The translations under genes were made by a program, and so were the position numbers. Of a stretch of DNA of 64,000 bases, positions 20,751 through 49,313 are shown piece after piece. Each line of letters begins with the position of its first letter. Positions within the stretch are counted from its first letter, which is position 1. Below the pieces are notes generated by a model, which saw only the letters and a list, made by a program, of their open reading frames with translations, did no database searches and had not been told where the DNA came from. This stretch comes from Giardia intestinalis (Eukaryota), in NCBI GenBank assembly GCA_000002435.2, contig CM018791.1. The stretch is one strand, 5' to 3'.

Positions 20751-21548
20751 ATGATCCCCATGCATGTGGCAGTGATAATGGATGGCAATGGTCGCTGGGC
20801 TCGCAAGCAGTTACAGGAACGGACCTTCGGGCACGAACAGGGCGTATCTGTTTTGGAGAGCATCGTTGATGAATGTATCAACTGCGGAATCCGCTTTCTC
20901 ACTGTTTATGCGTTCTCTACAGAAAATTGGAGTCGTCCCCCTACAGAGGTTTCATTTCTTTTTGAGCTCCTGAGTGCGGCCATTCAACGCGTACGGACCA
21001 CCTACAGAGAGAGGAATGTTAAAGTTCAATTCTGTGGAGAGCGAACCACACAGATACCAGAAACTGTCATCGCTGCAATGAACTGTATTGAACAGGACAC
21101 AGCTGCGTGTACAGGCCTCATCCTTTCCGTTTGCTTTAACTATGGCGGTCACACAGAGATCGCACAAGCCTGTAGAAGCGTCTTAGCTGATTGTCTCGAG
21201 GGTGATGCAGTGGAGAACATCAAGACACGGCTTCAAATGCCAATAGAACAGTTCATCCAACAGATTGATACACACCTCTATGCAAATTTGCCCCCTGTCG
21301 ATCTTCTTATCAGGACGGGTTGCGAGAAGCGACTCTCGAATTTCCTCCCCTGGCACTTAGCCTATGCTGAAATAATATTCAGCGACCTTCTCTGGCCTGA
21401 ATTCTCTGTTCGGGCCTTCAAAGATTGTCTCGATGAGTTTGCTTCGCGCACAAGACGGTTCGGAGGGGTCCAACTATCCCCAATGACGGGCGTTTACTCA
21501 GACACTCATCCTCACTCCTCCACAAATGCCCTATCGAACCATGACTGA
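20751..21548 (+). CDS. cis-prenyltransferase / dehydrodolichyl (undecaprenyl) diphosphate synthase
   Basis: HVAVIMDGNGRWA is the signature motif. FSTENWSRPPTEV, the RTGCEKRLSNFLPW (RxG...SNFLLWQ-like) motif and the C-terminal RRFGG are also present. The ORF-track start at 20631 would overlap the Bub3 start; the in-frame ATG at 20751 immediately precedes the conserved motif and is used here. Confidence 0.75.
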   Translation: MIPMHVAVIMDGNGRWARKQLQERTFGHEQGVSVLESIVDECINCGIRFLTVYAFSTENWSRPPTEVSFLFELLSAAIQRVRTTYRERNVKVQFCGERTTQIPETVIAAMNCIEQDTAACTGLILSVCFNYGGHTEIAQACRSVLADCLEGDAVENIKTRLQMPIEQFIQQIDTHLYANLPPVDLLIRTGCEKRLSNFLPWHLAYAEIIFSDLLWPEFSVRAFKDCLDEFASRTRRFGGVQLSPMTGVYSDTHPHSSTNALSNHD

Positions 21549-23476
21549 CTCTCATAGTCGTCAAAAGCAGAAGGACTAACAGCAGACCCCTTCTCTGCTA
21601 GGAGTTTCTTTAGGGCCCGCATGACACGGCACTCCATTATCACCCACTCAGTGGGCGCCTGTTTGCCACCATAGAGCTTCATGATCCTAACCATCTTCTG
21701 AATGTAATTTTCGACATTGATTGTAAACTGAATGTTGTATTGCTCTTCTGTATAATCTGTGTCGAGCTCAGAGCGGAATAGGCTCTTAAGGTCCTCGTAA
21801 TAAGGGATCCACCCAATAGGTGTGCACTTGGCTCTGTAGTGTCCACGTGTACGCCCGCATGCCCACGCAACCCACACCTTCTTATCAAGTTTGGAGTTGA
21901 GATACTCTCCGGTGGTGGGATCTTTCAGGAAATAGTTGACACCGAAAACCTTTGGCGCACGTGAGCCGAGAAGTCTACCAAAGCGGACGTGGTTCTCAAG
22001 ATACATCGGTACGGGGACAATCAGAAAGTCGAGGTTCGCCATAGGGTTCGACACAACGACACCCTGGGTGCCCAGAGTCGCAGCGGTTGTCTCTGACTCA
22101 ATGGAGCTTCCAATATAAACGCCATGAGCCCAGTTATGCGCCTGATAAACAGGGGGGCATGTGTTGGAGTCGCGGCCGCCGTAGAGGATGAGATCTACGT
22201 CCACACCATCCGGATTGTCCAGCTCCGGAGAAACGTTGCGGAGTTCCTTAAGGTTGAGTGTGAAGCGGGCATTTCCGTGCATGATAGGAAGCTCAGGCTT
22301 CGTCCAGGTCCCCTTATAATTTCGCCCACTGCTCGGAAGAAGACCAGGCTCGTTGACCATGTCGTTCTTGCTCTTGCCATAATACATCCCATCCCAGTAG
22401 GGTCTCCCATCCTCCCCAACTAGGACGTTGGAAAAGATACACTCACGCTCGCTAGTCAGGCAATCATAGATGAGGGGATCGTCACTCGGATTGACACCTG
22501 ATATGATCCCGAACATCCCTGTCTCGATGTTGACAGCCTTGCATCGGCGGATACCCATGTTATCGTCGACAATCTGCATGTAGACCATGTCGTCACCAAT
22601 GATGGATGAGCCTGGGGCCATGGACGTGGAGGTCTTCCCACACGCAGATGGGAATGCACCACAAACGTTAAGCTTGTCATTGGGGATACACGGATTGGCG
22701 AAGGTGGAAAGGAACATGTGCTCCGTAAGGTTGTTCTTCTCTGGGTGATGATTCGAGTCGTAGATTGCCAAGCGAAGAGCAAGCTTCTTGCACGCGAGGG
22801 CATTCCCAGCATATGAATTATTTATGGTATATACAAGATGCTCGACAGGATTGATATATATTCGACGCTTGTCAATGTCGACAGGCCTGTTTGCGCTGTC
22901 TGTTCTGCCCACAGAGTGGTAGAATGCATAAAACGAGCGGTTGGCAGACGTCTCCTTCATGTGCCTATTCACCATCTGTGCGAAGCCATTGCGGTACAGA
23001 ACATTCTCAGAGTGAAGAATGTACCACGAGTCAGTGAATTGGACTGCCGTTTTGGAGAACGAACAATTGACAGGCCCAAGGCAGTAAAAGGCGATAAGCA
23101 TCTGCTTGCCCTCCATACAGCCCTTCATTATCTCACGGACATGTGCAGTGCCTTCCTTGCGGTCGCGGGTCATGACATCTGCGTCCAGTCCAGTCTGATC
23201 GTCAAGAAGAATGAGAGTGTTCTTCTTATCACGACCCTGGTCATCCGGACTATCGAAGTGGTAAGTATGGCCAGGCATGGCGAGCTGATGCTCCTCGCCC
23301 TGTGCAAGAGCGTTCGAGCGGGCGTAGTCGATTTCCTCCTTGGAACTCGTCTGGATGTAAAGGGAGGATGGCCTCATGAGCTCTATCGCGTCCAGCAACA
23401 GCTCATTGAAAGCAGGGCAGTTGAGCTGGTCGATAATCGTCTGAGAACGCTCGTCGACAACGGGGTGGAGGCTCAT
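21512..23476 (-). CDS. Phosphoenolpyruvate carboxykinase, GTP-dependent
   Basis: The ORF-track start at 23551 is TTG; the first ATG is 23476..23474 (MSLHPVV). The kinase-1a / P-loop motif FPSACGKTS of GTP-PEPCKs is present, with conserved blocks along the whole length (654 aa). The 3' end overlaps the convergent cis-prenyltransferase gene by 37 nt. Confidence 0.85.
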   Translation of the reverse strand: MSLHPVVDERSQTIIDQLNCPAFNELLLDAIELMRPSSLYIQTSSKEEIDYARSNALAQGEEHQLAMPGHTYHFDSPDDQGRDKKNTLILLDDQTGLDADVMTRDRKEGTAHVREIMKGCMEGKQMLIAFYCLGPVNCSFSKTAVQFTDSWYILHSENVLYRNGFAQMVNRHMKETSANRSFYAFYHSVGRTDSANRPVDIDKRRIYINPVEHLVYTINNSYAGNALACKKLALRLAIYDSNHHPEKNNLTEHMFLSTFANPCIPNDKLNVCGAFPSACGKTSTSMAPGSSIIGDDMVYMQIVDDNMGIRRCKAVNIETGMFGIISGVNPSDDPLIYDCLTSERECIFSNVLVGEDGRPYWDGMYYGKSKNDMVNEPGLLPSSGRNYKGTWTKPELPIMHGNARFTLNLKELRNVSPELDNPDGVDVDLILYGGRDSNTCPPVYQAHNWAHGVYIGSSIESETTAATLGTQGVVVSNPMANLDFLIVPVPMYLENHVRFGRLLGSRAPKVFGVNYFLKDPTTGEYLNSKLDKKVWVAWACGRTRGHYRAKCTPIGWIPYYEDLKSLFRSELDTDYTEEQYNIQFTINVENYIQKMVRIMKLYGGKQAPTEWVIMECRVMRALKKLLAEKGSAVSPSAFDDYESQSWFDRAFVEE

Positions 23477-23553
23477 CTGAATTCTAAAACGAAAATGTAA
23501 TTTACTAGAAAGAAAACTCTTTGACCAAAAATAGTTTGAACAAAACCACAAAC

Positions 23554-25107
23554 CTAACTATCTGCAAATATGGCGGAATTAAAAGATACATCAGAGAGTT
23601 CCGAATCTGGCCTGCTGGCAAGGCGGCTCCGTATGCCTCGCTTTGACCTGCGCTTATCATCTAAGTCAGAGTTGTACGTACTAAAGCTGGATGTTAATTC
23701 AGAAATAGTTTGCACGGTGGGAACAGCGATCTTTTGTTGTTCTATAGGCCTTTTAGTTAATCCGAAAAGCAAACACTCCTCATCATTGTCGGAGATGTGC
23801 ACTGAGAGGGTCTCCTCATTAAGAACACCGCGATTTGCAGTTGAGCCCATATCTGGAATAGCGTCAGACTCTACATACGCAGCCGCTGCGTCTTTAGATG
23901 CCTGCGAAGACCCTGGAGGGACTACTGGGGCGTTAGAGATCTGAAGGCATGAGGCATACTCTGCTATCTTACTTGAGGTAGACTGAGCTACTATAGGTAC
24001 GTCTGCAGGATTGGATAAGTAGCTTCCAAGAGGACAGTGTGCATGTGAGACAGACTGGGGAACCTGCATTGATAGTGCATTGAGGTGTGTAGGATAGCTG
24101 GCAGAAGAACTTGTCAGACTATGGACAGGGCACTCTAAGTAATTGCTCATATCTGGTAAGCAGCAGCACTTGACGTTAGTAGGGGAGACTGACGGAAGAG
24201 TGGTTGCCTGATTGGAACTGGTTGCTGAAAAGATATTCGTGGGCATAGATGCACTGGTAGACCAAGTGTTAGAGCTAAACGTTGTTAACTGTAGATTTTC
24301 ATATGGAGAGGGGCCCATGTGGAAATTAGGTGATTGATTGAAGTGTGGATGCATTGAGAGTGGCTGTTGAGACTGTAAATACCGAGGGCTAGTAGACGGG
24401 TGGAACATAGACGGCTTGGTGTCTAGGAAGGAGGATATCGGAACTGGGTTCGGCCTTGGTGCCAGTTGATCGATAGATCCCCCCAATGCTCCTGTGGAAG
24501 GAGGGAATGTTTGGCTAAGCATGTGGTGAATAGGAAGATTGGGCATGTTTGTGCTCAATTGTGCCCCTCCCATAATGGGGACAGTATTGTCTTTATCCTT
24601 CTGGCGTATAAACCGACCACCTGCCCGTGGTCTATCACAGGCAATTTTTCTTCGCAGTTCATAGAGGCAGCGCTTGCCAAGAGATCGCAGGCCTCGGCCT
24701 CGCAAATACTTGGTCAGGAGGGACGCCCTTTCTGTCAGAGAAAACTTCCCAATGTGCGAAAGTTGACGAGGGTGCTTAATGTAGTATGTTGTCAATAAGT
24801 CTATGGGCTTAATATAGGTAGAAAGTGTATCTACTTCTGTTGCAAGGTGTTTAAACCCAAATGACTCCACAATGGGGGTGGAGCTAAGCTCTGCTATCTT
24901 AGCATCGAAGCTAGCCTTAGCATCGATAAGAGTCTGGATCTTGTCTTGCTGCTGAAGCTGTCCGACTTTATTACACAGCACAGACTGAACTTTAACAAGG
25001 TGAACTAGTAAATCATCCGGGTTCATTTGATTGAGCGCTGCGATGTCATCAATAATTTCCCCTCCTATCGCGGCGGCGGTTAGAGCCGAGGCAGGTACAT
25101 CGTCCAT
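23554..25107 (-). CDS. Hypothetical nuclear/regulatory protein with a CCT/NF-YA-like basic motif and S/P/Q-rich C-terminal region
   Basis: The ORF-track start at 25149 is TTG; the first ATG is 25107..25105 (MDDVPASALTA). Residues ERASLLTKYLRGRGLRSLGKRCLYELRRKIACDRPRAGGRFIRQKD follow the CCT consensus R-A-x-L-x-(R/K)-Y-x(5)-R-x-(F/L)-x-K-x-(I/L)-(R/L)-Y-x-x-R-(K/R)-x-x-A-x-x-R-P-R-x-x-G-R-F. The remainder is low-complexity, rich in Ser/Pro/Gln. Confidence 0.5.
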   Translation of the reverse strand: MDDVPASALTAAAIGGEIIDDIAALNQMNPDDLLVHLVKVQSVLCNKVGQLQQQDKIQTLIDAKASFDAKIAELSSTPIVESFGFKHLATEVDTLSTYIKPIDLLTTYYIKHPRQLSHIGKFSLTERASLLTKYLRGRGLRSLGKRCLYELRRKIACDRPRAGGRFIRQKDKDNTVPIMGGAQLSTNMPNLPIHHMLSQTFPPSTGALGGSIDQLAPRPNPVPISSFLDTKPSMFHPSTSPRYLQSQQPLSMHPHFNQSPNFHMGPSPYENLQLTTFSSNTWSTSASMPTNIFSATSSNQATTLPSVSPTNVKCCCLPDMSNYLECPVHSLTSSSASYPTHLNALSMQVPQSVSHAHCPLGSYLSNPADVPIVAQSTSSKIAEYASCLQISNAPVVPPGSSQASKDAAAAYVESDAIPDMGSTANRGVLNEETLSVHISDNDEECLLFGLTKRPIEQQKIAVPTVQTISELTSSFSTYNSDLDDKRRSKRGIRSRLASRPDSELSDVSFNSAIFADS

Positions 25108-25228
25108 AGATTCTTTGGTATGCTTTGATATGGTTTTGTGTAAAAACAACTATGCATGTAAATTTTACATTTTTGTACATCAGCGGCTTTAACTTTGCAC
25201 ACTCTCGATTCCCAGGCTGGAGGGTTCC
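25108..25228. promoter_or_regulatory. Putative bidirectional A/T-rich promoter region between divergent genes
   Basis: A 121-bp A/T-rich spacer (taaaaacaactatgcatgtaaattttacatttttgtacatc...) lies between the minus-strand ATG at 25107 and the plus-strand ATG at 25229. Giardia promoters are short A/T-rich initiator regions. Confidence 0.4.
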
Positions 25229-28200
25229 ATGCAGACAGATTCTTCCACTGGGTGTGAGGTGGGGGTCGCCTGCAATGCGTTACCTGATGCAACATATTAT
25301 CTGATAAATTTGAACCAATTGCCATCTGGTGACGCTGAGCTCACACTTTTTCGTGCCAATAAGCTTTCTGTCCGAAAATCATATGGATTTCTAGACTTTT
25401 CATACACACTGATAAATAAGGAGAGTGACTTGCTTATAGCGCGCAAATCGCCTCTTATCTCTAGCTCCCCGTTTTGGGACTATCTATTTGACTCTCAGTT
25501 TCGTTTCCAGTCATGCTCGTTGCTATTTTGGCATGCATTTATCTTCTTATTACGTGTCATCAGATGGGCATCTTCCCAGGGCCCAAGGCACAATGTCTGG
25601 CTAGACTTTCTGAATTCAGCTCTACACGGTAATGTGTTCGACTACCTTATTGTTCTAGATACCGGTATTCTCGTACTTGACACTCCAAACCTACTTCTAG
25701 CATGCCTTAAATCGGGAACTAGCACGATTAAAAGGATATCAGACGAGACCACTCCTATTGTATTGGAGGCAACGCTGGTGTGGGCGCTCGGATCCTACTT
25801 TTCCACGACTATCCCAGAGCTTTTTAACAATCTGGATCCGTGCTATTCCTCTCTTTCTGGTTACACAGCATATCAACCAATAGACGTATCCATGCAGAAA
25901 TTATCTTCTTTAGCTGACAAGATTGCAAACGGAGAAAACTCTTTTCCTGCTGCACAGATACTGAAGGATCCTATTGTAAGGAGGATGGAGATTCTAGTGG
26001 ATAGGCTATGCCTTATTTGCAGATCAGACCGCGGGTTTACACAATTGATGACGGCGGCAAAAGAGAATAACGAGAACGAATTGAAGAAATTTATATACCA
26101 ATCCAATCTGACTTCCAGTACTCCCTTGGGGTTAACGGCATTGATGGTAGCAATCCGCAATAGGTCATCTCTGGCCGCAAAGGTTCTAGTCCCGTATGAG
26201 GCATGTAGTATAGATTCAGCCGGTTCCACTGCTCTTATGTACTCTGTCCAGAATAAGCTCTATGACGGGGCCGAGGCTCTTGCCTCACTCGAGTGTGGAA
26301 TACGCAATAAGGAAAACAAGACAGCAATCTACTTAGCTTACGAGCAGCACGACCATAAAATGCTAGAGATTCTTGCACCGTGGGAGAACCATCTAGTATA
26401 TGATAACGGCAAGACACTACTTATGATAGCCTCCAGCCAGAACAACATCTCAGCTGTTAATATTCTTCTTAAGTACGAAGCTGGCGTTTCTGATCGATCT
26501 GGGCACATGGCCTCTCGCTATGCCCTTCTCAATGGGCATAGAGAGGTTTTCAATGCGCTCCTGCCTGCCGAGCAGAGTATCATGAAGCGCTTTAGTTGCA
26601 CCCCGCTAATGATCGCAGTTGCCCAAAACGATGTCAAGCAGGTCTCCATAGAACTCAACGTATACCCCAGGCGCAAATTCAAGGGAATCACAGCTCTTAT
26701 GATAGCAGTGCTAATGAATTCTAAGGAAGAGATTCTTGAAATGCTGGAGGCTAAGGAGGCACGCATGGTCAACACCAAAGGCCAGACTGCTCTTATGCTC
26801 GCTGTTCAGAGGAATCTAATACCCTACGTTACTAGGCTGGCTCCATTAGAAGCAGGAATATTTGACAAGAGGGGGCATACTGCCTTAATGTACGCTATAC
26901 AAGCTAAGAATATCGCTGCCGTGAAAATTCTAATTTGCTATGAAACCGGATTGGTTAATCCCTACACAGGGGCCACAGCACATCACATGATTAAGTCCAT
27001 TTCAGAAACAGAGCAAGATATTGCTTTAGCGCAGGAGCTAACCCAGACTGTGGGAAGGTATGAGACATTCAATCGTGATGCCTATGGGAACACGCCTTTG
27101 ATTCATGCTGTGATTGCCAATAACAAGGGTTTACTACAAGAATACGCTTGCCAGGCTAAGCTTCGAAACTTCCATGGACGCACTGCCTTGCATTTCGCAG
27201 TTGAGCTAGGTAATTTTGAAGTAGCGCAGGAGCTGCTTGAGCTTGGGGCAGGCGGTTTGCAAGATTACTCTGGAGTAACTGCACTTATGATAGCGGCAAC
27301 GAATGGCCAAACAGACTTGTTGGACCTCCTTCTTAGTCACGAAGCAGGAGAGACCAGGCGTGTGACCACAGCAGGAAAGAGTGCCCTTATTCTTGCTCTA
27401 GAGAATGGGCACACCTCTGCAGCATCTACACTTGCCATCTATGAATCAGGTATTGTTGATGAGGCGGGCGCCTTTGCAGCCAAGATCGCGGCCATGAAAG
27501 GCTACACTAACGTCTTTACTCAGCTTTATGAGCAGGAGAAGAACCTGCTTTACAACGACGGGTTCACTCACCTCATGCTAGCAGCGATAAGGAATGATAT
27601 AAAGACACTCCGGCAAAACATGCAAACGGATGCACGTACTGCGCTTCCTGGAAGTGGGATGTCTGCGCTAATGCTAGCAACTATCCACGGAAATCAGGAA
27701 GCGTGCCGGTTGCTTCTATCAGTCGAAAGTTGTATGGTTAACTCTGAAGGAAAGACTGCTTTGATGCTTGCTGCTGAGCGTGATCTATGCAGCATAGTGA
27801 AGATGCTCTCTAGTATTGAGGCAGGCCTAAGGGACTATAGAGGAACATCAGCGCTGATGATCGCGGCCATGCGGGGTCACCCTGAGAATGTTGCCGAGCT
27901 CATGAGGTACGAGGCAGGAATTGCCAATAATGCAAAGCAAACAGCAGCGTCGCTTGCATACTGGTCCAATCATAAACAGATCTTTTGCATGCTAGCCCAG
28001 GCAGAACTGAGCATCAGAGACGCTCGTGGAAATACTGAGTTAATGAAAGCAGTTATGAATAAGGATATAAAGCAGGCCACTGCTATGGTGCACCTGGCAG
28101 GCTGCAAGAATTTCAACGGAGAAACAGCCCTGATGATCGCTGTCAAAGAGAGGTTCTACGACGGCGTCGTTTTGCTGGCGGATCTAGAATCTAGTATCCA

Positions 28201-29764
28201 AGATGTCAATGGGACCACGGCGCTAATCATAGCGTGTGAGAACTCCTTTATAGAGGCCGTTACCTTGCTTCTAAAAGAAATCAATATACACAAACTGGAT
28301 GGATCTAGTCCAAGGTCAGTTGCACTTGCACGTAATCATTTCGAGTTAGGGAGGCTTCTCCCGAAAAAGCCCTTGCTGGACTCTTTTGGATGCACTCAGC
28401 TGATGCTTGCAATTGAGGCAGGAGACGAGACACTTGCTTTGACCCCACAGATGCTTTCCTTAGAGGGCTTTCAGGACTACGATGGCAAAACCGCCCTTAT
28501 GTACGCTGCCGAGAAAAATATGTGCTCGGTAGTTGAAGCTCTTGTGGGCGTGGAGTGCAAAGTTATGGATTACAGCGGAAAGACCGCCGCAGTTCATGCC
28601 TATTTGACAGGCTCTTTGGAGTCGCTGGCCATTCTTATCAGGTTTGAGGCTCTTCATTACCTCAATAATTCAACACAAACCATCTTTATGCAGGCAGTTG
28701 TGGCCCGGAACATAGAAGTTATACACATTGTTGGGCCATATGAGGCAGGATACCAACTGGAGGATGGAACCACCGCACTGTCACTTGCGAGAACCCTCAG
28801 TGAGAAGTCATGCGAACGGCTCCTCGAAGCTGTACTCCAGTATGAAGCTGGTAATACAGCTCCGCGGGCAACTAGTTTATTAGGACAAAGAGCAGATAGA
28901 GAAAAGATCATCTCTTTCGGCAGTAGTCATAGAGTAGGAACCCCGGAGATAGAGGAGCCGGGGCGAGATAATGATGGAAATACAGCACTAATTCGGTTAG
29001 TTCGCAGCAATTCCAAGGCGGACATCTCTCCCTTGCTGCATCAAGCCGGTCTTGTGAACCGAAAAGGAATGAGCGCTCTAATGTTTGCTGCAGAACTAAA
29101 CAATGTTTCCGCTGCACGACTTTTAGCTGAAAAAGAAGCAGGCTACACTGTAGTTTCACATATAAGCACGCCGTTCATTTTGTCCAATGCAACGGCACTC
29201 CATATTGCTGCTATTCGTGGCAACACAGAAATTGTACAGATTTTGGTGGAGCAGGAAGCAGGGATGGTGGATTATCGGAAAAGATCAGCACTGATGCTAG
29301 CCGCGTACTTCGGCCATCTCTCTGTTGTTCAATTGTTGCTTGGTAGAGAGAAGGCACTTCAGGACTCCAGTGGCCGCACTGCCCTGTTTTACGCGATTGA
29401 GAGTAACAAGGTGCGCATAGTTCAGGAGCTCTTACCGCATGAGGCGACTTTGGTGACAACCGCGGATTATATGGCTGGCCCCGGTTTCACTGCTCTTATG
29501 GATGCAGCTAGGCTGGGTAATATCGCCGCTATCAAGCTGCTTATGGCTAAAGAAGGTGGAATGACACAGCCACAAGAGGCTGGGACACACTCTAATTGGA
29601 CCGCACTAGTCTGGGCATCTTCTCACGGCCAACGAGAGGCCGTTCTCGAGCTTGCACCCTTAGAGTTAGAGATCTGTAGTCAACTGGCCTTTTACTATGC
29701 TCAAGATGCATCGATAACTGACTTACTAACAGAGCTCAGAAGCGCCTTTTCCTCACGTTCTTAA
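25229..29764 (+). CDS. Protein 21.1-family ankyrin-repeat protein (1511 aa) with a ~300-aa non-ankyrin N-terminal domain
   Basis: ATG at 25229 (MQTDSST). From about residue 290 onward there are more than 30 TALMxA-type ankyrin repeats. The N-terminal region has no recognisable kinase motifs. Confidence 0.8.
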   Translation: MQTDSSTGCEVGVACNALPDATYYLINLNQLPSGDAELTLFRANKLSVRKSYGFLDFSYTLINKESDLLIARKSPLISSSPFWDYLFDSQFRFQSCSLLFWHAFIFLLRVIRWASSQGPRHNVWLDFLNSALHGNVFDYLIVLDTGILVLDTPNLLLACLKSGTSTIKRISDETTPIVLEATLVWALGSYFSTTIPELFNNLDPCYSSLSGYTAYQPIDVSMQKLSSLADKIANGENSFPAAQILKDPIVRRMEILVDRLCLICRSDRGFTQLMTAAKENNENELKKFIYQSNLTSSTPLGLTALMVAIRNRSSLAAKVLVPYEACSIDSAGSTALMYSVQNKLYDGAEALASLECGIRNKENKTAIYLAYEQHDHKMLEILAPWENHLVYDNGKTLLMIASSQNNISAVNILLKYEAGVSDRSGHMASRYALLNGHREVFNALLPAEQSIMKRFSCTPLMIAVAQNDVKQVSIELNVYPRRKFKGITALMIAVLMNSKEEILEMLEAKEARMVNTKGQTALMLAVQRNLIPYVTRLAPLEAGIFDKRGHTALMYAIQAKNIAAVKILICYETGLVNPYTGATAHHMIKSISETEQDIALAQELTQTVGRYETFNRDAYGNTPLIHAVIANNKGLLQEYACQAKLRNFHGRTALHFAVELGNFEVAQELLELGAGGLQDYSGVTALMIAATNGQTDLLDLLLSHEAGETRRVTTAGKSALILALENGHTSAASTLAIYESGIVDEAGAFAAKIAAMKGYTNVFTQLYEQEKNLLYNDGFTHLMLAAIRNDIKTLRQNMQTDARTALPGSGMSALMLATIHGNQEACRLLLSVESCMVNSEGKTALMLAAERDLCSIVKMLSSIEAGLRDYRGTSALMIAAMRGHPENVAELMRYEAGIANNAKQTAASLAYWSNHKQIFCMLAQAELSIRDARGNTELMKAVMNKDIKQATAMVHLAGCKNFNGETALMIAVKERFYDGVVLLADLESSIQDVNGTTALIIACENSFIEAVTLLLKEINIHKLDGSSPRSVALARNHFELGRLLPKKPLLDSFGCTQLMLAIEAGDETLALTPQMLSLEGFQDYDGKTALMYAAEKNMCSVVEALVGVECKVMDYSGKTAAVHAYLTGSLESLAILIRFEALHYLNNSTQTIFMQAVVARNIEVIHIVGPYEAGYQLEDGTTALSLARTLSEKSCERLLEAVLQYEAGNTAPRATSLLGQRADREKIISFGSSHRVGTPEIEEPGRDNDGNTALIRLVRSNSKADISPLLHQAGLVNRKGMSALMFAAELNNVSAARLLAEKEAGYTVVSHISTPFILSNATALHIAAIRGNTEIVQILVEQEAGMVDYRKRSALMLAAYFGHLSVVQLLLGREKALQDSSGRTALFYAIESNKVRIVQELLPHEATLVTTADYMAGPGFTALMDAARLGNIAAIKLLMAKEGGMTQPQEAGTHSNWTALVWASSHGQREAVLELAPLELEICSQLAFYYAQDASITDLLTELRSAFSSRS

Positions 29765-39080: not shown

Positions 39081-40454
39081 TTACTTTAAAATCTCCTGTT
39101 TCAGCTTCTCGACCATATCTTTGTTGGCTAGGAGCTCTTTCTCTAGGGTTGTCAGGCGAGCAAGAATGGTGGGCAAGTCTGCAACCAGTTCTCTGAGATC
39201 ATGCAATCTCCGCGGATTGTCCTCAGCCAGGATCTCTTGCTTCTTGGTAATGACCTTGAGCGTGCCGTCTAGCTCCTTTTGATACTTGATTACACGCAGC
39301 ACTAGTTCCGGGTTAAATACGTTAACCGTTTTGTTCATCTTTGCAATCTTTTCTGCACTGACATTTTGTTTTGCTTCGAGAGCCTTAATGCGGGCCATAA
39401 GCTCAGTGATTAACTTGGCCTGTGCATCTACAGTGTTCTGTAAAGCCACAAGCTCCTGGCGGTTCTCTACTCCCATTGCATGCATGCTTGTTGTTATGGC
39501 ATTGTGCAAAAACCCTGAGCTGATATCTGCGAGCTCTGCTGTTATGGCGGCAGTATCCCACTTAATACCTTGGCCAGGCGCAAGTGCAGGAATAGACTTT
39601 TTTCTGGACAGTGTCGCCTTCCTAGGGTAAGTGGGCTGCTGAACATTTTCCTGGACACTTTCACTGGTAGTGAACTGAATTGCAGATTTCGAACGCGGGA
39701 GAAACTGATGGGTTGCTGATCCTATTGGTATTGCAACAGTGGTGTTGTTAAGGGAGGCCGGAGGCGCTGGTCTCGTATCGGCCTTGGATTTATCGCCAAA
39801 CATGGCCATAAATGAGCCTGCGAAGCTGATTTTCTGGCCTGACTTAGCTGATAGTGGTGGCTGATAGGTCCTCGATGACTTATTGGGGGGAGATGGTGCT
39901 ACTGAATCAGTAAGGGGGGTGTCTTGAAGTAAAAGAGGCACAGTGTCGAAGAGTTCGCTTTGGAGGGCAGTAATACTGTCGTCGTCTTTGTAACATCTGA
40001 CGCTACTGGCGACACTGTTGGTCTCGCTAACTGAATCGTTGGGGCTGGTGAGGAGTACATGCTTACTGGGTCTACTTTCAATGGCAGTCACACCATCTGC
40101 TGCTAGCACAACTGAGCCAGGCGGTGAAGCAACAGGGGGCCCCTCCCTTGCCGTGCTAACCGGACCGATGGCGTTCAATCTGGTATCCAGTGACGTTGGT
40201 GGTTTTCTTCGCCTGAATGGCTTCTGCTGCATGTCAACACCTAGGGAATTGTTGCAATGAGAGTAGTGACTCTGACTTTGCGTCAAGTTAGAGAGATAGA
40301 TACTGTCAGATGAACTCAAATCATTGAACATGCCTATGCCTGCGGAAGCTGTGTTACTTAATTGAGCAGCCGACTCATCAATTTTGATGGTAGGGCCCTC
40401 ATAATTTGCATAGGATGAAGATAGGGTAGGGTTAGGTGGGGCAAATTTAAGCAT
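39081..40454 (-). CDS. Hypothetical protein with Ser-rich N-terminal half and C-terminal coiled coil
   Basis: ATG at 40454..40452. The C-terminal ~150 aa have a heptad-like pattern (LVALQNTVDAQAKLITELMARIKALEAKQ...LTTLEKELLANKDMVEKLKQEILK). No domain recognised. Confidence 0.5.
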   Translation of the reverse strand: MLKFAPPNPTLSSSYANYEGPTIKIDESAAQLSNTASAGIGMFNDLSSSDSIYLSNLTQSQSHYSHCNNSLGVDMQQKPFRRRKPPTSLDTRLNAIGPVSTAREGPPVASPPGSVVLAADGVTAIESRPSKHVLLTSPNDSVSETNSVASSVRCYKDDDSITALQSELFDTVPLLLQDTPLTDSVAPSPPNKSSRTYQPPLSAKSGQKISFAGSFMAMFGDKSKADTRPAPPASLNNTTVAIPIGSATHQFLPRSKSAIQFTTSESVQENVQQPTYPRKATLSRKKSIPALAPGQGIKWDTAAITAELADISSGFLHNAITTSMHAMGVENRQELVALQNTVDAQAKLITELMARIKALEAKQNVSAEKIAKMNKTVNVFNPELVLRVIKYQKELDGTLKVITKKQEILAEDNPRRLHDLRELVADLPTILARLTTLEKELLANKDMVEKLKQEILK

Positions 40455-42379: not shown

Positions 42380-43573
42380 ATGCCCCCGAAAGATATCACA
42401 GGATACAGTAGTAATCAGAAGGCAAAAGAGGACGCAAATCCTCTCCCACATCTGAGTCAATTGGCTTGTTCGCCAACTTCCATAATTAATCAGTCCCAGA
42501 ACCAGAGCCAAACCAGGCCACCGAGCTATTCTGATGCAGGACGTCAACACTTTAACGACTACCCGTCGCTCAACAACATGATAACCCCCAGTTCTGGCTC
42601 TTCTCACTCAGGTAACTATCACCAGCAGAGCACCGTGGGAAGCCTACCGGCCTCTAACCTTGCCAGTAACATGGGTTCAGGCATGCCTCACTCTTCTTAT
42701 TTTACACACCCTTCAATGTCAGCAAGCCAGGTCAGTGGGCAGCAGCGTATACCCGTGGGATCATCATACCACCAGCAGGCACCAGTGCCCTCGCGCGATG
42801 ATCAGCGGCACACCGTATCAGTCAAGCATACTCCCGTTTTATCTACACCAAGTTTTGCCCATACTCAGCAGCCTGGAAGACCCGCCCATATGCAATCCGC
42901 ACCAACTGGCACAGTACCTGTTCAGCAGCACTCTCAGCACGATAGCTATCAGGACCCGAGAACACTACCTCAACGGCAGCAGAGTCAGATTCCATATTCT
43001 GCGTATCAACATCACTCTTCCTCGCCATATTCTCAGGTGCCAGGGTCTCTACCGTTCGTCCAGAGCAAATCGGAGTCGCAGCCGATGGGCTCGCGCTCCT
43101 CCAGCACACCACTGGTTACTGGCATGCCAGTTATGCATTCCTCCTCGGCACCAAACGTGCAGCCCGCAGTAGTGCCACGCTCGCCGCGAACTCAAGATAC
43201 CAGTTTGCCGCCTCCGCGGTTTGTGCCGACCTACGACAGTGAAACAATAGCACAAAGGGTAACCGGATATTATTCAAAGCAATCGTCTGATTTCGCTAGC
43301 CTCATCAAACTAATTCAGGATTCCTCAGCAGAGTACTCATGCATATTCAGTGACTCATTAGTGGCAGACCTTATTGGCGCATCCTCCTTAAGCTCTCCCT
43401 CGCAAGGACACTTACGGGCTATTGGTCTTACACTTCAGCACATGCTCACTTGCGTTCTCGAAAAGGCCCATGAGCTCTCGGTTACAACAAATCCCGAAGG
43501 CTCTTCCATCTTGACAGATGCTGATGTGAAAAACGCACTTACTATCCTCGGATTTACTTCGCTTGTAAATTAA
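42380..43573 (+). CDS. Hypothetical Ser/Gln/Pro-rich protein with a structured ~110-aa C-terminal domain
   Basis: ATG at 42380 with an A/T-rich leader (tagatttaaataattcttc). The first ~280 aa are low-complexity S/Q/P/H-rich. The C-terminus (ETIAQRVTGYYSKQ...ILTDADVKNALTILGFTSLVN) is helical, has a histone-fold-like flavour, and is unassigned. Confidence 0.5.
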   Translation: MPPKDITGYSSNQKAKEDANPLPHLSQLACSPTSIINQSQNQSQTRPPSYSDAGRQHFNDYPSLNNMITPSSGSSHSGNYHQQSTVGSLPASNLASNMGSGMPHSSYFTHPSMSASQVSGQQRIPVGSSYHQQAPVPSRDDQRHTVSVKHTPVLSTPSFAHTQQPGRPAHMQSAPTGTVPVQQHSQHDSYQDPRTLPQRQQSQIPYSAYQHHSSSPYSQVPGSLPFVQSKSESQPMGSRSSSTPLVTGMPVMHSSSAPNVQPAVVPRSPRTQDTSLPPPRFVPTYDSETIAQRVTGYYSKQSSDFASLIKLIQDSSAEYSCIFSDSLVADLIGASSLSSPSQGHLRAIGLTLQHMLTCVLEKAHELSVTTNPEGSSILTDADVKNALTILGFTSLVN

Positions 43574-43592: not shown

Positions 43593-44519
43593 TCATGCAT
43601 TGAATGGAAAGCCAAATGGGGGCGATACCTTAAAGGGATGTGGGCACTGAAAGCCAGGTAGTGAGGTGGGATGGTATATGGGCGAAAGAACGGGAAACGT
43701 ATGTGTAATTAGAGGGTAATGGCTCCCGTACGGAACAGTTTGAAAAGGAAGTGCAAACATAAGGTTTAGAGGGCCCTGGTGACCCGCCTGGAGCAGCCCG
43801 GGAGGAGGGTAGTCGGGCAGCATCAGTTTGTCAGACCGGACGGCGGAGCGCGTATGCCGTGCCGGAGGATTTGTACCGTTATATGACTGAACATTGCCAT
43901 CATTAGAGTAATTGTCTGCCAAGAAGTCAGGCTCGGTGAGCAGAGACGGAGTTGTAACGCCATCGTCAGAGGAAGAGGAAAATCGCTCCAAAGACAGGGC
44001 ATCGTGGCAATCCGTCCCGGGCAAAGTCCCAGGTGTACCACCGTTAGTATTGTAGTCGCTTCCTAAGAACGCATCAGTTGCGTCTGGGGTGAGACAGTGG
44101 GGTGTGTTGTTGAGCATATCTTCACGGGGTGAGACGTTCTTATAGCTAATAATAGATAAGTCTAAGATGTTAGAACTAGGTACACGCTGGTGTGGTGCAG
44201 AGCGAGCAGAGGATTTGCCGCTCCGCGGCCCCGGGGGAAAATCAATAATCTCACTGTCCAAAGCCACATTTCCATATATAGCACGATTATAGGCATCCCC
44301 ACGGCGCGTAAGCGTGTAGTATTTGTTCCTGATTGATGTGGCATTCCTCCCAGGGTAGTAGGCCACGTATTGGCTCCACGAGCGATTATAGACCTTGAAC
44401 AAACGCAGGAGAAGAAGCTCCTCATCTAGACCCCATTTCTTGCGAGTGACCCCTACGCGCTTCGGGTGAGCCCCCTGCGCTTTCATTGAAGCAGTGCTGA
44501 CCTTCACTGTTGTCGTCAT
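43593..44519 (-). CDS. Myb/SANT-like DNA-binding protein (single repeat) with Pro/Ser-rich C-terminal region
   Basis: ATG at 44519..44517. RKKWGLDEELLLLRLFKVYNRSWSQYVAYYPGRNATSIRNKYYTLTRR fits a Myb/SANT repeat (W...EE..L......G..W..IA...PGR....I+N+(Y/W)). Confidence 0.65.
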   Translation of the reverse strand: MTTTVKVSTASMKAQGAHPKRVGVTRKKWGLDEELLLLRLFKVYNRSWSQYVAYYPGRNATSIRNKYYTLTRRGDAYNRAIYGNVALDSEIIDFPPGPRSGKSSARSAPHQRVPSSNILDLSIISYKNVSPREDMLNNTPHCLTPDATDAFLGSDYNTNGGTPGTLPGTDCHDALSLERFSSSSDDGVTTPSLLTEPDFLADNYSNDGNVQSYNGTNPPARHTRSAVRSDKLMLPDYPPPGLLQAGHQGPLNLMFALPFQTVPYGSHYPLITHTFPVLSPIYHPTSLPGFQCPHPFKVSPPFGFPFNA

Positions 44520-47444: not shown

Positions 47445-49313
47445 ATGGGAGGTGACGAGGTCCATGAGTCCGAGGAGAGCCCGCACGGAATCAATAGCTC
47501 GTCTACGGTACGTCTAAAAACGATGAAAAACGCCTCTTATACATGGAAAGACGTCTTAGGACCGCTAAGTAGAATCTGTCGCGATGCTACCCTTATTAAG
47601 CTCTGTTTGCTCCCAAAAATGCGATTTGTGGCTGCAGCATGCAGAGACCCCATCTTAAAAATGTCCTTCCTTGCCCCGTTGGAGCGCTCAAATCATTCGC
47701 TCCATACAATCTTATCTCCTCATAATTCAAGTTTTTATTCACGTATGTATCACGGGGCCGACTATCTTGGCGATGCATACTTATGCCCCACAGACAGCAA
47801 ACGGACAAAGAAGCACGGGCATGCCATTTTCTACTGCACAACCCAAGCTCCCCGGATACCAGTAGTAGCTGCTCGAATTTACCCCAAGTTAAGTCAGAAT
47901 CTTATAATCACCGTCTCCGGTATTCCACGCGAGCTTATGTTTCCAGACTCCTATGCGATGTACAGGTTTTCTCGTCCACTACTTCGGATGGCTATCTGCA
48001 CTCTGAGCCCTAAGGGGCATATACGTGTAAAAGGAAATGTGTATACCCATCCCTTGTTTGGAAAGCACTTAGATTTGTATGACATCCAAGACCCCTTAAT
48101 CCCCGGAACTGCTATGTTCGAGTCGGACAATCATGAAATCTATATTAGAGCCGATATGCTTGCGCATCAGCGGCTGTTTTTGCTGATAGAATTTACCTTT
48201 TTGGCAGATCTCAATAAGGAAGGGGAGTCTAATATACCTCTCATTGAAGTATCAAGAGGTGTGTCTTTTCTGCGACTTAGTCCCATGGAAGACTTTTCCC
48301 AATCATTTATGGAGGGTGTTCAGCAGTCTATGATGTCTTTACCAAAGCTGTTAGATAAACATGAAGCAAAGATGCAGAGAAGGCGGGCAGACGATGACTT
48401 TATGCGTATTTATGACCTCGTGGACATTTTGAATTTGGTAGGGTGCACAAAAAATGATTCAAAGTTAGTAAAGCTCCTTCAATCTGCTTCTAAAAATGTA
48501 AGCAATCCTAATAAACAAAAGCAAAATCTGCAACAATACTCCCCCGTGGATCAAACATCTATAGAGCTGCCCATATTTGAATTCTCAGTCTCGGATCCTC
48601 TTACAACTCTCGTTGACGGAACAAGCTTCAAACGTTGGAAGTCCAAGCCGAGCAGGTCCTGCTCACTTGTGTTGAAAATAAAACCTATACACATTCGTGA
48701 TGTAGGACCACTGAGTAGACTTCCAGGGACAATGATTGTTCCACCGCGATGTCTATTCTTACTAGATCATATTACGGCAGCATATGCTTCCATGCTTGTA
48801 GGTCCACAATCACATCTCCAGCAAGCTAATCCTCAGTTGGGTCGACTCTGCGTAAGACCAGTTGTAGACGATGGTGACACTAGCGGCCTTGCCGCAATGC
48901 TAAGATCTTCATCTGGCTCTGCTTTGCAATTTCCCGCTGAGATTGCAACCCTTACTGCCATAGTGAAAAGTTTTGGCCGACAGAGAGCGGTCATACAAAA
49001 CGAATATCCCGTGGCACTCTCAGGAAGCGCTCTCCTGTACTTTTTTGCCGCTATATTTGAAGAACGTGTGAACGAGGTGCCCCGGGATCTCAGGTACTAC
49101 ATGAACCAAAGCGTTTTGCTACCAGTGTCCTTAAATATTACTGATAACATATTTCTGGGGACATTCATACGATGTTTAAGATACTTTCAACATTCAATAC
49201 TAAGGGAGATGGCAGCAATGAATTTGAGGAACGAGTGGAGGGGAGATGAGACGACATGGGATAAGGAATATGATCAGATAGTCAGGCTCCTTTCAAAAGG
49301 CCAGTCTTACTGA
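47445..49313 (+). CDS. Hypothetical protein (622 aa), no recognised domain
   Basis: ATG at 47445 (MGGDEVHESEESPHG) with an A-rich leader ggaaattaaaactc. The frame is continuous and codon usage is Giardia-like. The 3' end overlaps the convergent ankyrin gene by 7 nt. Confidence 0.5.
   Translation: MGGDEVHESEESPHGINSSSTVRLKTMKNASYTWKDVLGPLSRICRDATLIKLCLLPKMRFVAAACRDPILKMSFLAPLERSNHSLHTILSPHNSSFYSRMYHGADYLGDAYLCPTDSKRTKKHGHAIFYCTTQAPRIPVVAARIYPKLSQNLIITVSGIPRELMFPDSYAMYRFSRPLLRMAICTLSPKGHIRVKGNVYTHPLFGKHLDLYDIQDPLIPGTAMFESDNHEIYIRADMLAHQRLFLLIEFTFLADLNKEGESNIPLIEVSRGVSFLRLSPMEDFSQSFMEGVQQSMMSLPKLLDKHEAKMQRRRADDDFMRIYDLVDILNLVGCTKNDSKLVKLLQSASKNVSNPNKQKQNLQQYSPVDQTSIELPIFEFSVSDPLTTLVDGTSFKRWKSKPSRSCSLVLKIKPIHIRDVGPLSRLPGTMIVPPRCLFLLDHITAAYASMLVGPQSHLQQANPQLGRLCVRPVVDDGDTSGLAAMLRSSSGSALQFPAEIATLTAIVKSFGRQRAVIQNEYPVALSGSALLYFFAAIFEERVNEVPRDLRYYMNQSVLLPVSLNITDNIFLGTFIRCLRYFQHSILREMAAMNLRNEWRGDETTWDKEYDQIVRLLSKGQSY

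What the first reader, a model, noticed from the sequence alone, without database searches (positions are those of the whole stretch)
23554..25107. Protein carrying a CCT/NF-YA-type basic motif, a domain best known from plant CONSTANS/TOC1 and the CCAAT-binding factor
Residues RASLLTKYLRGRGLRSLGKRCLYELRRKIACDRPRAGGRFIRQKD reproduce the ordered CCT consensus R(E)A.L.RY.EK...R.F.K.IRY..RK..A..RPR.KGRF, with the RPRxxGRF ending that is also shared by NF-YA. The rest of the protein is S/P/Q-rich low complexity, typical of a transcriptional regulator. Giardia has a small transcription-factor repertoire that already includes plant-like families (GARP, WRKY), so a CCT-like DNA-binding module would be a further lineage-unusual factor. 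A Myb-like factor (43593-44519) lies about 18 kb away.
Basis: partly seen in the sequence, partly recalled or inferred. Interest (0 to 1): 0.55.

Follow-up and report, generated by a model that had tools for sequence, protein, structure and literature searches.

The report
Giardia protein with a CCT motif
This is a real, strongly conserved Giardia gene (GL50803_15255) carrying a genuine CCT motif, the small basic DNA-binding module known from plant CONSTANS/TOC1; databases already label it that way, the motif also occurs in many non-plant protists, and its function in Giardia has not been tested.

Summary
Window 23554-25107 (-) encodes a 517-aa protein whose residues 127-169 match Pfam CCT (PF06203, E 1.4e-6, 28.6 bits; cut-off 28.4). 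NF-YA (PF02045) is not matched. A profile of the Giardia and protist motifs hits the solved CCT domains of rice Hd1 and Arabidopsis CO at E about 1e-15. AlphaFold2 with 122 sequences predicts two helices (124-139, 143-158) at pLDDT 85-95.

The gene is identical to Giardia intestinalis WB GL50803_0015255. NCBI calls it hypothetical, but UniProt already auto-names it and its orthologues 'CCT domain-containing protein'. Orthologues exist in four other G. intestinalis lineages and in G. muris, in conserved synteny. dN/dS is 0.017 in the motif.

The motif is not plant-restricted. Similar CCT-only proteins occur in oomycetes, ochrophyte algae and ciliates.

My best reading is a nuclear DNA-binding regulator, possibly working with a histone-fold pair as plant CCT proteins do. 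DNA binding, the partner and localisation are untested here. I found no paper on the gene. It is a known kind, already flagged in databases, and of modest interest.

The parts
23554..25107 (-). Whole gene, 517 codons plus TAG stop; equals G. intestinalis WB GL50803_0015255. An alternative start at M28 (window 25026) is used by the NCBI model.
   Evidence: ORF and translation. 490/490 identity to XP_037901821.1 from M28. Orthologues at 87/75/70/68% identity and G. muris. dN/dS 0.106 against the assemblage B orthologue.
24772..25026 (-). N-terminal conserved helical domain (residues 28-112) with no match outside Giardia in this search; function unknown, possibly oligomerisation or partner binding.
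   Evidence: Nearly invariant in 5 G. intestinalis lineages and conserved in G. muris. dN/dS 0.028. No non-Giardia homologue in the exhaustive profile search and no Pfam hit. Helices predicted only at low confidence.
24595..24753 (-). CCT motif with its N-terminal IGxF[ST]xxER extension (residues 119-171). The Pfam CCT match is residues 127-169 (window 24601-24729).
   Evidence: Pfam PF06203 E 1.4e-6. Hd1 CCT 7c9o E 0.0036 with the single sequence and 1.4e-15 with the profile. Gapless alignment with about 50 CCT proteins. dN/dS 0.017. AF2 helices 124-139 and 143-158 with pLDDT 85-95. 30% Lys+Arg.
23848..24591 (-). S/P-rich, fast-evolving linker (residues 173-420) with short invariant islands, e.g. 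KCCCxxDMxNxLECPxH at residues 313-329.
   Evidence: Composition S17% P12%. dN/dS 0.227. Invariant islands seen in alignment A1. Predicted disordered.
23557..23847 (-). C-terminal conserved module (residues 421-517): acidic stretch, basic cluster DKRRSKRGIRSR, and an acidic/hydrophobic tail SDVSFNSAIFADS. A possible second nuclear-localisation signal and activation or partner-binding region (inferred).
   Evidence: Residues 465-516 are nearly invariant in G. intestinalis lineages. TISELTSSFS and the SDVS..IF tail are kept in G. muris. dN/dS 0.020. A helix at 469-497 is predicted only at low confidence.
25108..25228 (.). 121-bp divergent intergenic region shared with the 1511-aa ankyrin-repeat gene (25229-29764 +). 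It contains an A/T-rich stretch about 40-90 bp upstream of ATG 25107 and is the presumed promoter.
   Evidence: Sequence read directly. The same gene order is kept in the assemblage B contigs. Promoter function is not tested.

Best explanation
The gene encodes a CCT-motif protein of the 'CCT-only' type, conserved throughout the genus Giardia. I think it is most likely a nuclear, sequence-specific DNA-binding regulator.

Inferred mechanism: the 45-residue basic CCT motif (two helices followed by the RPRxGGRF tail) contacts DNA. By analogy with plant CO/Hd1, it may dock through its first helix on an H2A/H2B-like histone-fold pair, taking the place that NF-YA occupies in NF-Y. The N-terminal helical domain, which matched nothing outside Giardia, would provide self-association or partner binding. 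The S/P-rich linker is a flexible spacer. The conserved acidic/hydrophobic C-terminal tail with its basic cluster would provide nuclear import and contact with the transcription machinery.

Shown here: family membership, conservation, purifying selection and predicted helicity. Inferred only: DNA binding, the histone-fold partner, nuclear localisation and the roles of the flanking modules.
For: - Pfam CCT above the curated cut-off, covering the full motif; same hit in all orthologues, 27.1-36.9 bits.
- The single sequence hits the Hd1 CCT structure 7c9o at E 0.0036. The profile of Giardia and protist motifs hits 7c9o, 7cvo and 7cvq at about 1e-15.
- Every column that is invariant across 122 CCT sequences is kept in Giardia: R127, R138, Y149, R152, A156, R159, R161, G164, R165, F166.
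- AF2 with a 122-sequence alignment gives helices 124-139 and 143-158 with pLDDT 85-95.
- dN/dS is 0.017 in the motif while synonymous sites are near saturation, pS 0.69.
- Orthologues are present in five G. intestinalis lineages and G. muris, in conserved synteny.
- Plant CCT domains bind DNA with NF-YB/NF-YC; see the review PMC10203454, which cites Gnesutta 2017, Shen 2020 and Lv 2021.
Against: - No experiment on this protein was found in any searchable paper.
- The Pfam score is only 0.2 bits above the cut-off, and the P15 orthologue falls 1.3 bits below it.
- Two positions usually conserved in the first helix differ: G137 where most have Lys, and L143 where most have Phe/Trp. This could weaken docking on a histone-fold pair.
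- Whether Giardia encodes NF-YB/NF-YC-type proteins could not be tested with these tools.
- Fold searches with the free-motif model found nothing informative.
- In plants CCT motifs also serve as protein-interaction surfaces (FKBP12 binding) and, from my own knowledge, as nuclear-import signals, so DNA binding is not guaranteed.
Confidence: 0.55

Rival explanations
1. The CCT motif serves as a nuclear-import or protein-protein interaction module rather than a DNA-reading head. The protein would be a scaffold or co-regulator recruited by other factors.
For: The review PMC10203454 reports that the CO CCT domain also binds a non-DNA partner, FKBP12. The N-terminal half of the motif profile weakly resembles Jas degron peptides, which are pure protein-interaction motifs (E 0.04-0.2). 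Two large additional conserved modules suggest multiple partners. G137 and L143 depart from the consensus.
Against: The residues conserved family-wide in the DNA-proximal second half (Y149, R152, A156, RPR 159-161, GRF 164-166) are all retained and nearly frozen. This is what a DNA- or partner-reading surface would require.
Confidence: 0.27
2. It is Giardia's highly diverged NF-YA orthologue and binds CCAAT boxes with NF-YB/NF-YC.
For: The motif ends in GGRF, as NF-YA does. The G. muris orthologue gives a faint PF02045 hit (E 0.19, profile positions 29-56).
Against: There is no PF02045 hit in this protein at E <= 10. The PDB profile search finds CCT domains at 1e-15 and no NF-YA chain at E <= 10. 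The alignment to CCT is gapless over the whole motif, whereas the alignment to NF-YA covers only the last 29 residues and needs a gap. The NF-YA histidines are replaced by Tyr/Arg/Lys. GGRF is common among protist CCT motifs.
Confidence: 0.06
3. It is a chance resemblance of an arginine-rich stretch to a short, low-information profile, with no homology to CCT.
For: The motif is only about 45 residues long and 30% Lys+Arg. The Pfam score sits at the threshold.
Against: The reciprocal profile gives E about 1e-15 to solved CCT domains. There are 51 independent CCT proteins at E < 1e-3 in a library of 1.84 billion, all aligned to the motif region. The alignment is gapless with 10 invariant columns. 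The G. muris orthologue scores 36.9 bits. Pairwise z is 9-12 against CO and Hd1.
Confidence: 0.02

Closest known systems
Plant CCT-motif family (CMF) proteins, i.e. CCT-only proteins such as Ghd7 and VRN2/ZCCT; more broadly the CCT domains of CONSTANS/Hd1 (PDB 7cvo, 7cvq, 7c9o) and TOC1/PRR
   Same: It has the same 43-45 residue motif with every family-wide invariant residue, a Pfam PF06203 hit, and profile E about 1e-15 to Hd1/CO CCT. Two helices plus an RPRxxGRF tail are predicted. Like CMF proteins it has no B-box, receiver, TIFY or GATA domain.
   Different: The motif lies in the N-terminal third rather than near the C-terminus. It is flanked by N- and C-terminal modules that matched nothing outside Giardia. 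It ends GGRF rather than K/N-GRF, has Gly for Lys at motif position 11 and Leu for Phe/Trp at position 17. No partner or target is known.
Unnamed protist CCT proteins (oomycete Pythium insidiosum GLE06458.1, Pelagophyceae KAJ1445821.1, Ochromonadaceae KAJ1438200.1, ciliate Blepharisma stoltei CAG9314785.1, and many environmental eukaryote sequences)
   Same: These are the closest motif relatives of the Giardia protein. They share the IGxY[ST]xxER start and often the RPRVGGRF ending, and are otherwise low-complexity or very short.
   Different: None shares the Giardia N- or C-terminal modules. All are uncharacterised as far as I could find.
NF-YA / HAP2 (Pfam PF02045), the sequence-specific subunit of the CCAAT-binding factor
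   Same: It has a basic bipartite helix-linker-helix logic and a GGRF ending. The literature holds that CO (through its CCT domain) and NF-YA bind the same position on the NF-YB/NF-YC dimer (PMC10203454). Local similarity is seen over the last 29 residues.
   Different: The Pfam membership test fails. The linker length differs, NF-YA's signature histidines are absent, and no PDB NF-YA chain is matched at E <= 10.
Jas (CCT_2) degron motif of JAZ/TIFY proteins
   Same: The first half of the motif (ER..L..YL.KR..R) weakly matches Jas peptides 4rs9, 3ogk and 4yz6 (E 0.04-0.2).
   Different: The scores are not significant, there is no Pfam Jas hit, and the Giardia motif has the full second half that Jas lacks.

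Membership tests
CCT motif (Pfam PF06203) | Match to the family HMM at or above the curated gathering score, covering the motif end to end | tested here: met
   28.6 bits against 28.4, E 1.4e-6, profile positions 1-43 of 44. Orthologues score 27.1-36.9 bits. The margin is small for this protein and comfortable for G. muris.
CCT motif (Pfam PF06203) | Reciprocal similarity to experimentally solved CCT domains | tested here: met
   Single sequence against 7c9o (Hd1): E 0.0036. Profile A3 against 7c9o, 7cvo and 7cvq: E 1.4e-15 to 4e-15.
CCT motif (Pfam PF06203) | Signature residues R1, Y8, R12, Y23, R26, A30, R33-P34-R35, G38-R39-F40 (motif numbering) | tested here: met
   R127, Y134, R138, Y149, R152, A156, R159-P160-R161 and G164-R165-F166 are all present. 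Ten of these columns are invariant across 122 sequences. From my own memory, the positions of the plant loss-of-function alleles toc1-1 (Ala30), vrn2 (Arg35, Arg39) and ppd-H1 (Gly38) are all conserved here.
CCT motif (Pfam PF06203) | Two alpha-helices followed by an extended basic tail | tested here: met
   AF2 with a 122-sequence alignment gives helices 124-139 and 143-158, pLDDT 85-95. This is a prediction only. Fold searches against the PDB were uninformative.
CCT motif (Pfam PF06203) | Binds DNA (CCACA/CORE-type sites), alone or with NF-YB/NF-YC | not testable with these tools
   This needs EMSA, DAP-seq or ChIP. I could not scan the Giardia proteome for histone-fold partners.
CCT motif (Pfam PF06203) | Nuclear localisation | not testable with these tools
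   No localisation data were found. Basic clusters are present in the motif and at residues 485-495.
NF-YA / CBFB_NFYA (Pfam PF02045) | Match to the family HMM at the gathering score (27 bits) | tested here: not met
   No hit at E <= 10 in this protein. G. muris scores 12.8 bits, E 0.19, on the second half only.
NF-YA / CBFB_NFYA (Pfam PF02045) | A1 helix (YVNAKQY...), about 20-residue linker, and A2 helix with His/Arg signature HxSRHxHAxxRxRGxGGRF | tested here: not met
   Local alignment covers only KRCLYELRRKIACDRPRA-GGRF against RKYLHESRHRHAMARKRGEGGRF.
CONSTANS-like / PRR / TIFY-GATA architectures | CCT combined with a B-box, a pseudo-receiver, or TIFY plus GATA domains | tested here: not met
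   No other Pfam domain appears at E <= 10 or in any orthologue. The architecture is CCT-only (CMF-like).

The most novel reading that the evidence does not exclude
Giardia, which has a minimal transcription apparatus, may use this CCT protein as the sequence-reading third subunit of an NF-Y-like histone-fold complex in place of NF-YA. The protist motifs ending in GGRF would then be evolutionary intermediates between NF-YA and plant CCT. That would place CCT/histone-fold complexes in the last eukaryotic common ancestor rather than treating them as a plant innovation. The gene would also be an uncharacterised developmental regulator (for example of encystation) of a human parasite.
Probability: 0.15. 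Interest if true: 0.6.

Novelty: already known. Interest (0 to 1): 0.3.

Why it matters
Giardia has few recognisable transcription factors, so each credible DNA-binding candidate is a useful target for tagging, ChIP and knock-down, particularly for encystation and antigenic-variation studies. The gene also shows that the CCT motif is not a plant speciality. A deeply branching, non-photosynthetic parasite keeps one under very strong purifying selection. This makes the CCT/NF-YA/histone-fold relationship testable in a minimal system.

The domain assignment itself is not a discovery, because Pfam and UniProt already make it automatically. What remains missing is any functional work.

Tried and rejected
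- Full-length AF2: with 5 sequences the mean pLDDT was 31.7. It is too poor to interpret the N- and C-terminal modules, and I did not use it for fold search.
- Literature: searches on Giardia + CCT motif or domain, Giardia + NF-YB/NF-Y/CCAAT/histone fold/CBFB_NFYA, and six locus tags found nothing relevant. The encystation RNA-seq supplements (PMC4807828) do not list 15255. The Entamoeba NF-Y paper does not mention Giardia.
- Papers not held: the structural papers of Shen 2020, Lv 2021 and Gnesutta 2017, and Iyer 2008, are not in the library. I therefore could not map residue-level contacts from those sources.
- NF-YB/NF-YC in Giardia: no tool gives access to a Giardia proteome or genome. A family-wide search would be swamped by other eukaryotes, so I ran no further search on it.
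- Opposite-strand ORFs (23570-23944 +, 24466-24798 +): rejected as shadows of the conserved minus-strand gene.
- Jas degron reading: rejected because the scores are not significant and the full second half of the motif is present.

Full report
**1. What is in the sequence**

The minus strand of window 23554-25107 carries an uninterrupted reading frame of 517 codons. The ATG is at 25107 and the TAG stop at 23554-23556.

The gene lies 77 bp upstream of a GTP-dependent PEP carboxykinase gene (ATG at 23476). It is 121 bp from a divergently transcribed 1511-aa ankyrin-repeat gene. The window also encodes a protein matching Pfam 'Giardia variant-specific surface protein'.

The product is 100% identical over 490 residues to Giardia intestinalis WB GL50803_0015255 (XP_037901821.1) and 99% identical to the DH isolate protein.

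**2. Is the motif real?**

Yes, on four lines of evidence.
- Pfam-A reports one family only. CCT (PF06203) covers residues 127-169 and profile positions 1-43 of 44, at E 1.4e-6 and 28.6 bits. The curated cut-off is 28.4. The margin is thin.
- The five orthologues score 27.1 to 36.9 bits, with G. muris at 36.9.
- I scored a profile of the first 175 residues of the five G. intestinalis-lineage proteins against 1.84 billion representative proteins. It returned 54 hits at E <= 1e-3. All 51 outside Giardia align to the motif region (mostly profile positions about 100-174; three matches extend further towards the N-terminus), and they line up without gaps.
- A profile built from the Giardia motif and 22 of these hits finds the crystallised CCT domains of rice Hd1 (7c9o, E 1.4e-15) and Arabidopsis CO (7cvo and 7cvq, about 2-4e-15). 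It finds no NF-YA chain at E <= 10.

In a 122-sequence alignment, ten columns are invariant and Giardia has every one: R127, R138, Y149, R152, A156, R159, R161, G164, R165 and F166. Only one such motif occurs in the six-frame translation of the window.

With that alignment, AlphaFold2 predicts two helices (residues 124-139 and 143-158) with pLDDT 85-95. A small bridge joins the IGKF start and the GRFI end.

**3. CCT or NF-YA?**

It is CCT. PF02045 gives nothing in this protein at E <= 10. In G. muris it gives a faint 12.8-bit hit on the second half only.

It needs a gap and lacks NF-YA's histidines. Its z-score is 5.3, against 9-12 for CO and Hd1. The GGRF ending, which looks NF-YA-like, is common among protist CCT motifs.

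**4. The gene is real and constrained**

Orthologues exist in four other G. intestinalis lineages at 87, 75, 70 and 68% identity. The 87% one is P15 (assemblage E) and the 75% one is assemblage B. A further orthologue exists in G. muris. The ankyrin / CCT / PEPCK / prenyltransferase gene order is kept.

Against the assemblage B gene, synonymous sites are near saturation (pS 0.64) while dN/dS is 0.106 overall. By region:

| Region | Residues | dN/dS |
|---|---|---|
| N-terminal domain | 26-112 | 0.028 |
| CCT motif | 113-172 | 0.017 |
| S/P-rich middle | 173-420 | 0.227 |
| C-terminal module | 421-517 | 0.020 |

The protein therefore has three constrained modules, not one.
- The N-terminal module (residues 28-112) is predicted helical, at low confidence. 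It has no homologue outside Giardia in the exhaustive search.
- The C-terminal module holds an acidic stretch, the basic cluster DKRRSKRGIRSR, and an acidic/hydrophobic tail. G. muris partly shares it.

**5. Is it lineage-unusual?**

The motif's nearest relatives are not annotated as land-plant proteins. They are short or low-complexity proteins from environmental eukaryote assemblies. The named ones among them are Pythium insidiosum (oomycete), Pelagophyceae and Ochromonadaceae (ochrophyte algae) and Blepharisma stoltei (ciliate). All carry PF06203. The CCT motif is thus widespread among protists, and Giardia's copy fits a CCT-only type.

**6. Is it new?**

The domain call is not new. UniProt already names the WB (A0A644F3B0), DH (V6TGC5), P15 (E1EZN3), assemblage B (A0A132NV13) and G. 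muris (A0A4Z1T3D2) proteins 'CCT domain-containing protein'. NCBI still calls them hypothetical.

I found no paper that mentions the gene or a Giardia CCT protein. Its function is therefore uncharacterised in the literature I could search.

**7. How it most likely works**

The literature establishes that plant CCT domains bind DNA. For CO and Hd1 this happens in a trimer with the histone-fold pair NF-YB/NF-YC, at the position NF-YA otherwise occupies (review PMC10203454).

By homology, I propose that the Giardia protein is a nuclear DNA-binding regulator. Its CCT motif would read DNA, possibly on a histone-fold pair. Its flanking modules would mediate assembly and output.

I rate family membership at about 0.9, a DNA-binding regulator role at about 0.55, and dependence on a histone-fold pair at about 0.3.

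Two first-helix positions that are usually Lys and Phe/Trp are Gly137 and Leu143 here. That is a caution for the partner model. I could not test whether Giardia has NF-YB/NF-YC-type proteins.

**8. Rivals**
- A protein-interaction or import module without DNA reading: 0.27.
- A diverged NF-YA: 0.06.
- Chance resemblance: 0.02.

**9. Verdict**

This is a known kind that databases already flag. It is a sensible but unsurprising candidate regulator, and the open questions (partner, target sites, stage of action) need experiments. Interest 0.3.

Noticed in passing
window 25026-25179 (-): Gene models disagree on the start codon. This finding uses 517 aa (ATG 25107), the NCBI WB model 490 aa (M28, window 25026), the DH isolate model 541 aa, and there is a mechanical 531-aa TTG ORF. 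The G. muris orthologue starts at the position aligned to M28, and residues 1-25 evolve faster (dN/dS 0.25). However, M1 and D3 are invariant in five lineages, and the A/T-rich stretch lies upstream of 25107.
   Followed up: partly
window 24121-24171 (-), residues 313-329: An invariant island, KCCCxxDMxNxLECPxH, sits inside the otherwise fast-evolving S/P-rich linker in all five G. intestinalis lineages and is absent from G. muris. It could be a small Cys/His metal or lipid-modification site. Other short invariant islands are QTFPPS (199-204), STSPRY (238-243), MGPSPY (264-269) and SKIAxYASCLQ (379-389).
   Followed up: no
   Followed up: partly
window 2426-4204 (-): A 593-aa variant-specific surface protein (Pfam VSP, E 6e-88), which confirms the Giardia origin of the window.
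   Followed up: no
window 23476-23556 and 21515-23476 (-): Only 77 bp separate the stop of the CCT gene from the ATG of the GTP-PEPCK gene. This spacer contains AGTAAA (about 23505-23510), which resembles, from my own recollection, the Giardia polyadenylation signal and must overlap the PEPCK promoter.
   Followed up: no
proteins P0009-P0058 and P0060-P0178 (not in the window): There is a large, mostly unannotated population of very short (53-120 aa) or low-complexity eukaryotic proteins consisting of little more than a CCT motif with an IGxY[ST]xxER start. About half of the representative-search hits (P0009-P0058) end in RPRVGGRF (GGRF as in NF-YA); the alignment consensus of the P0060-P0178 set ends RLRVKGRF. 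The first half of their profile weakly matches Jas degron peptides.
   Followed up: partly
window 39084-40454 (-), 42380-43570 (+), 47445-49310 (+): Three sizeable ORFs (457, 397 and 622 aa) have no Pfam family at E <= 0.001. I did not examine them further.
   Followed up: no
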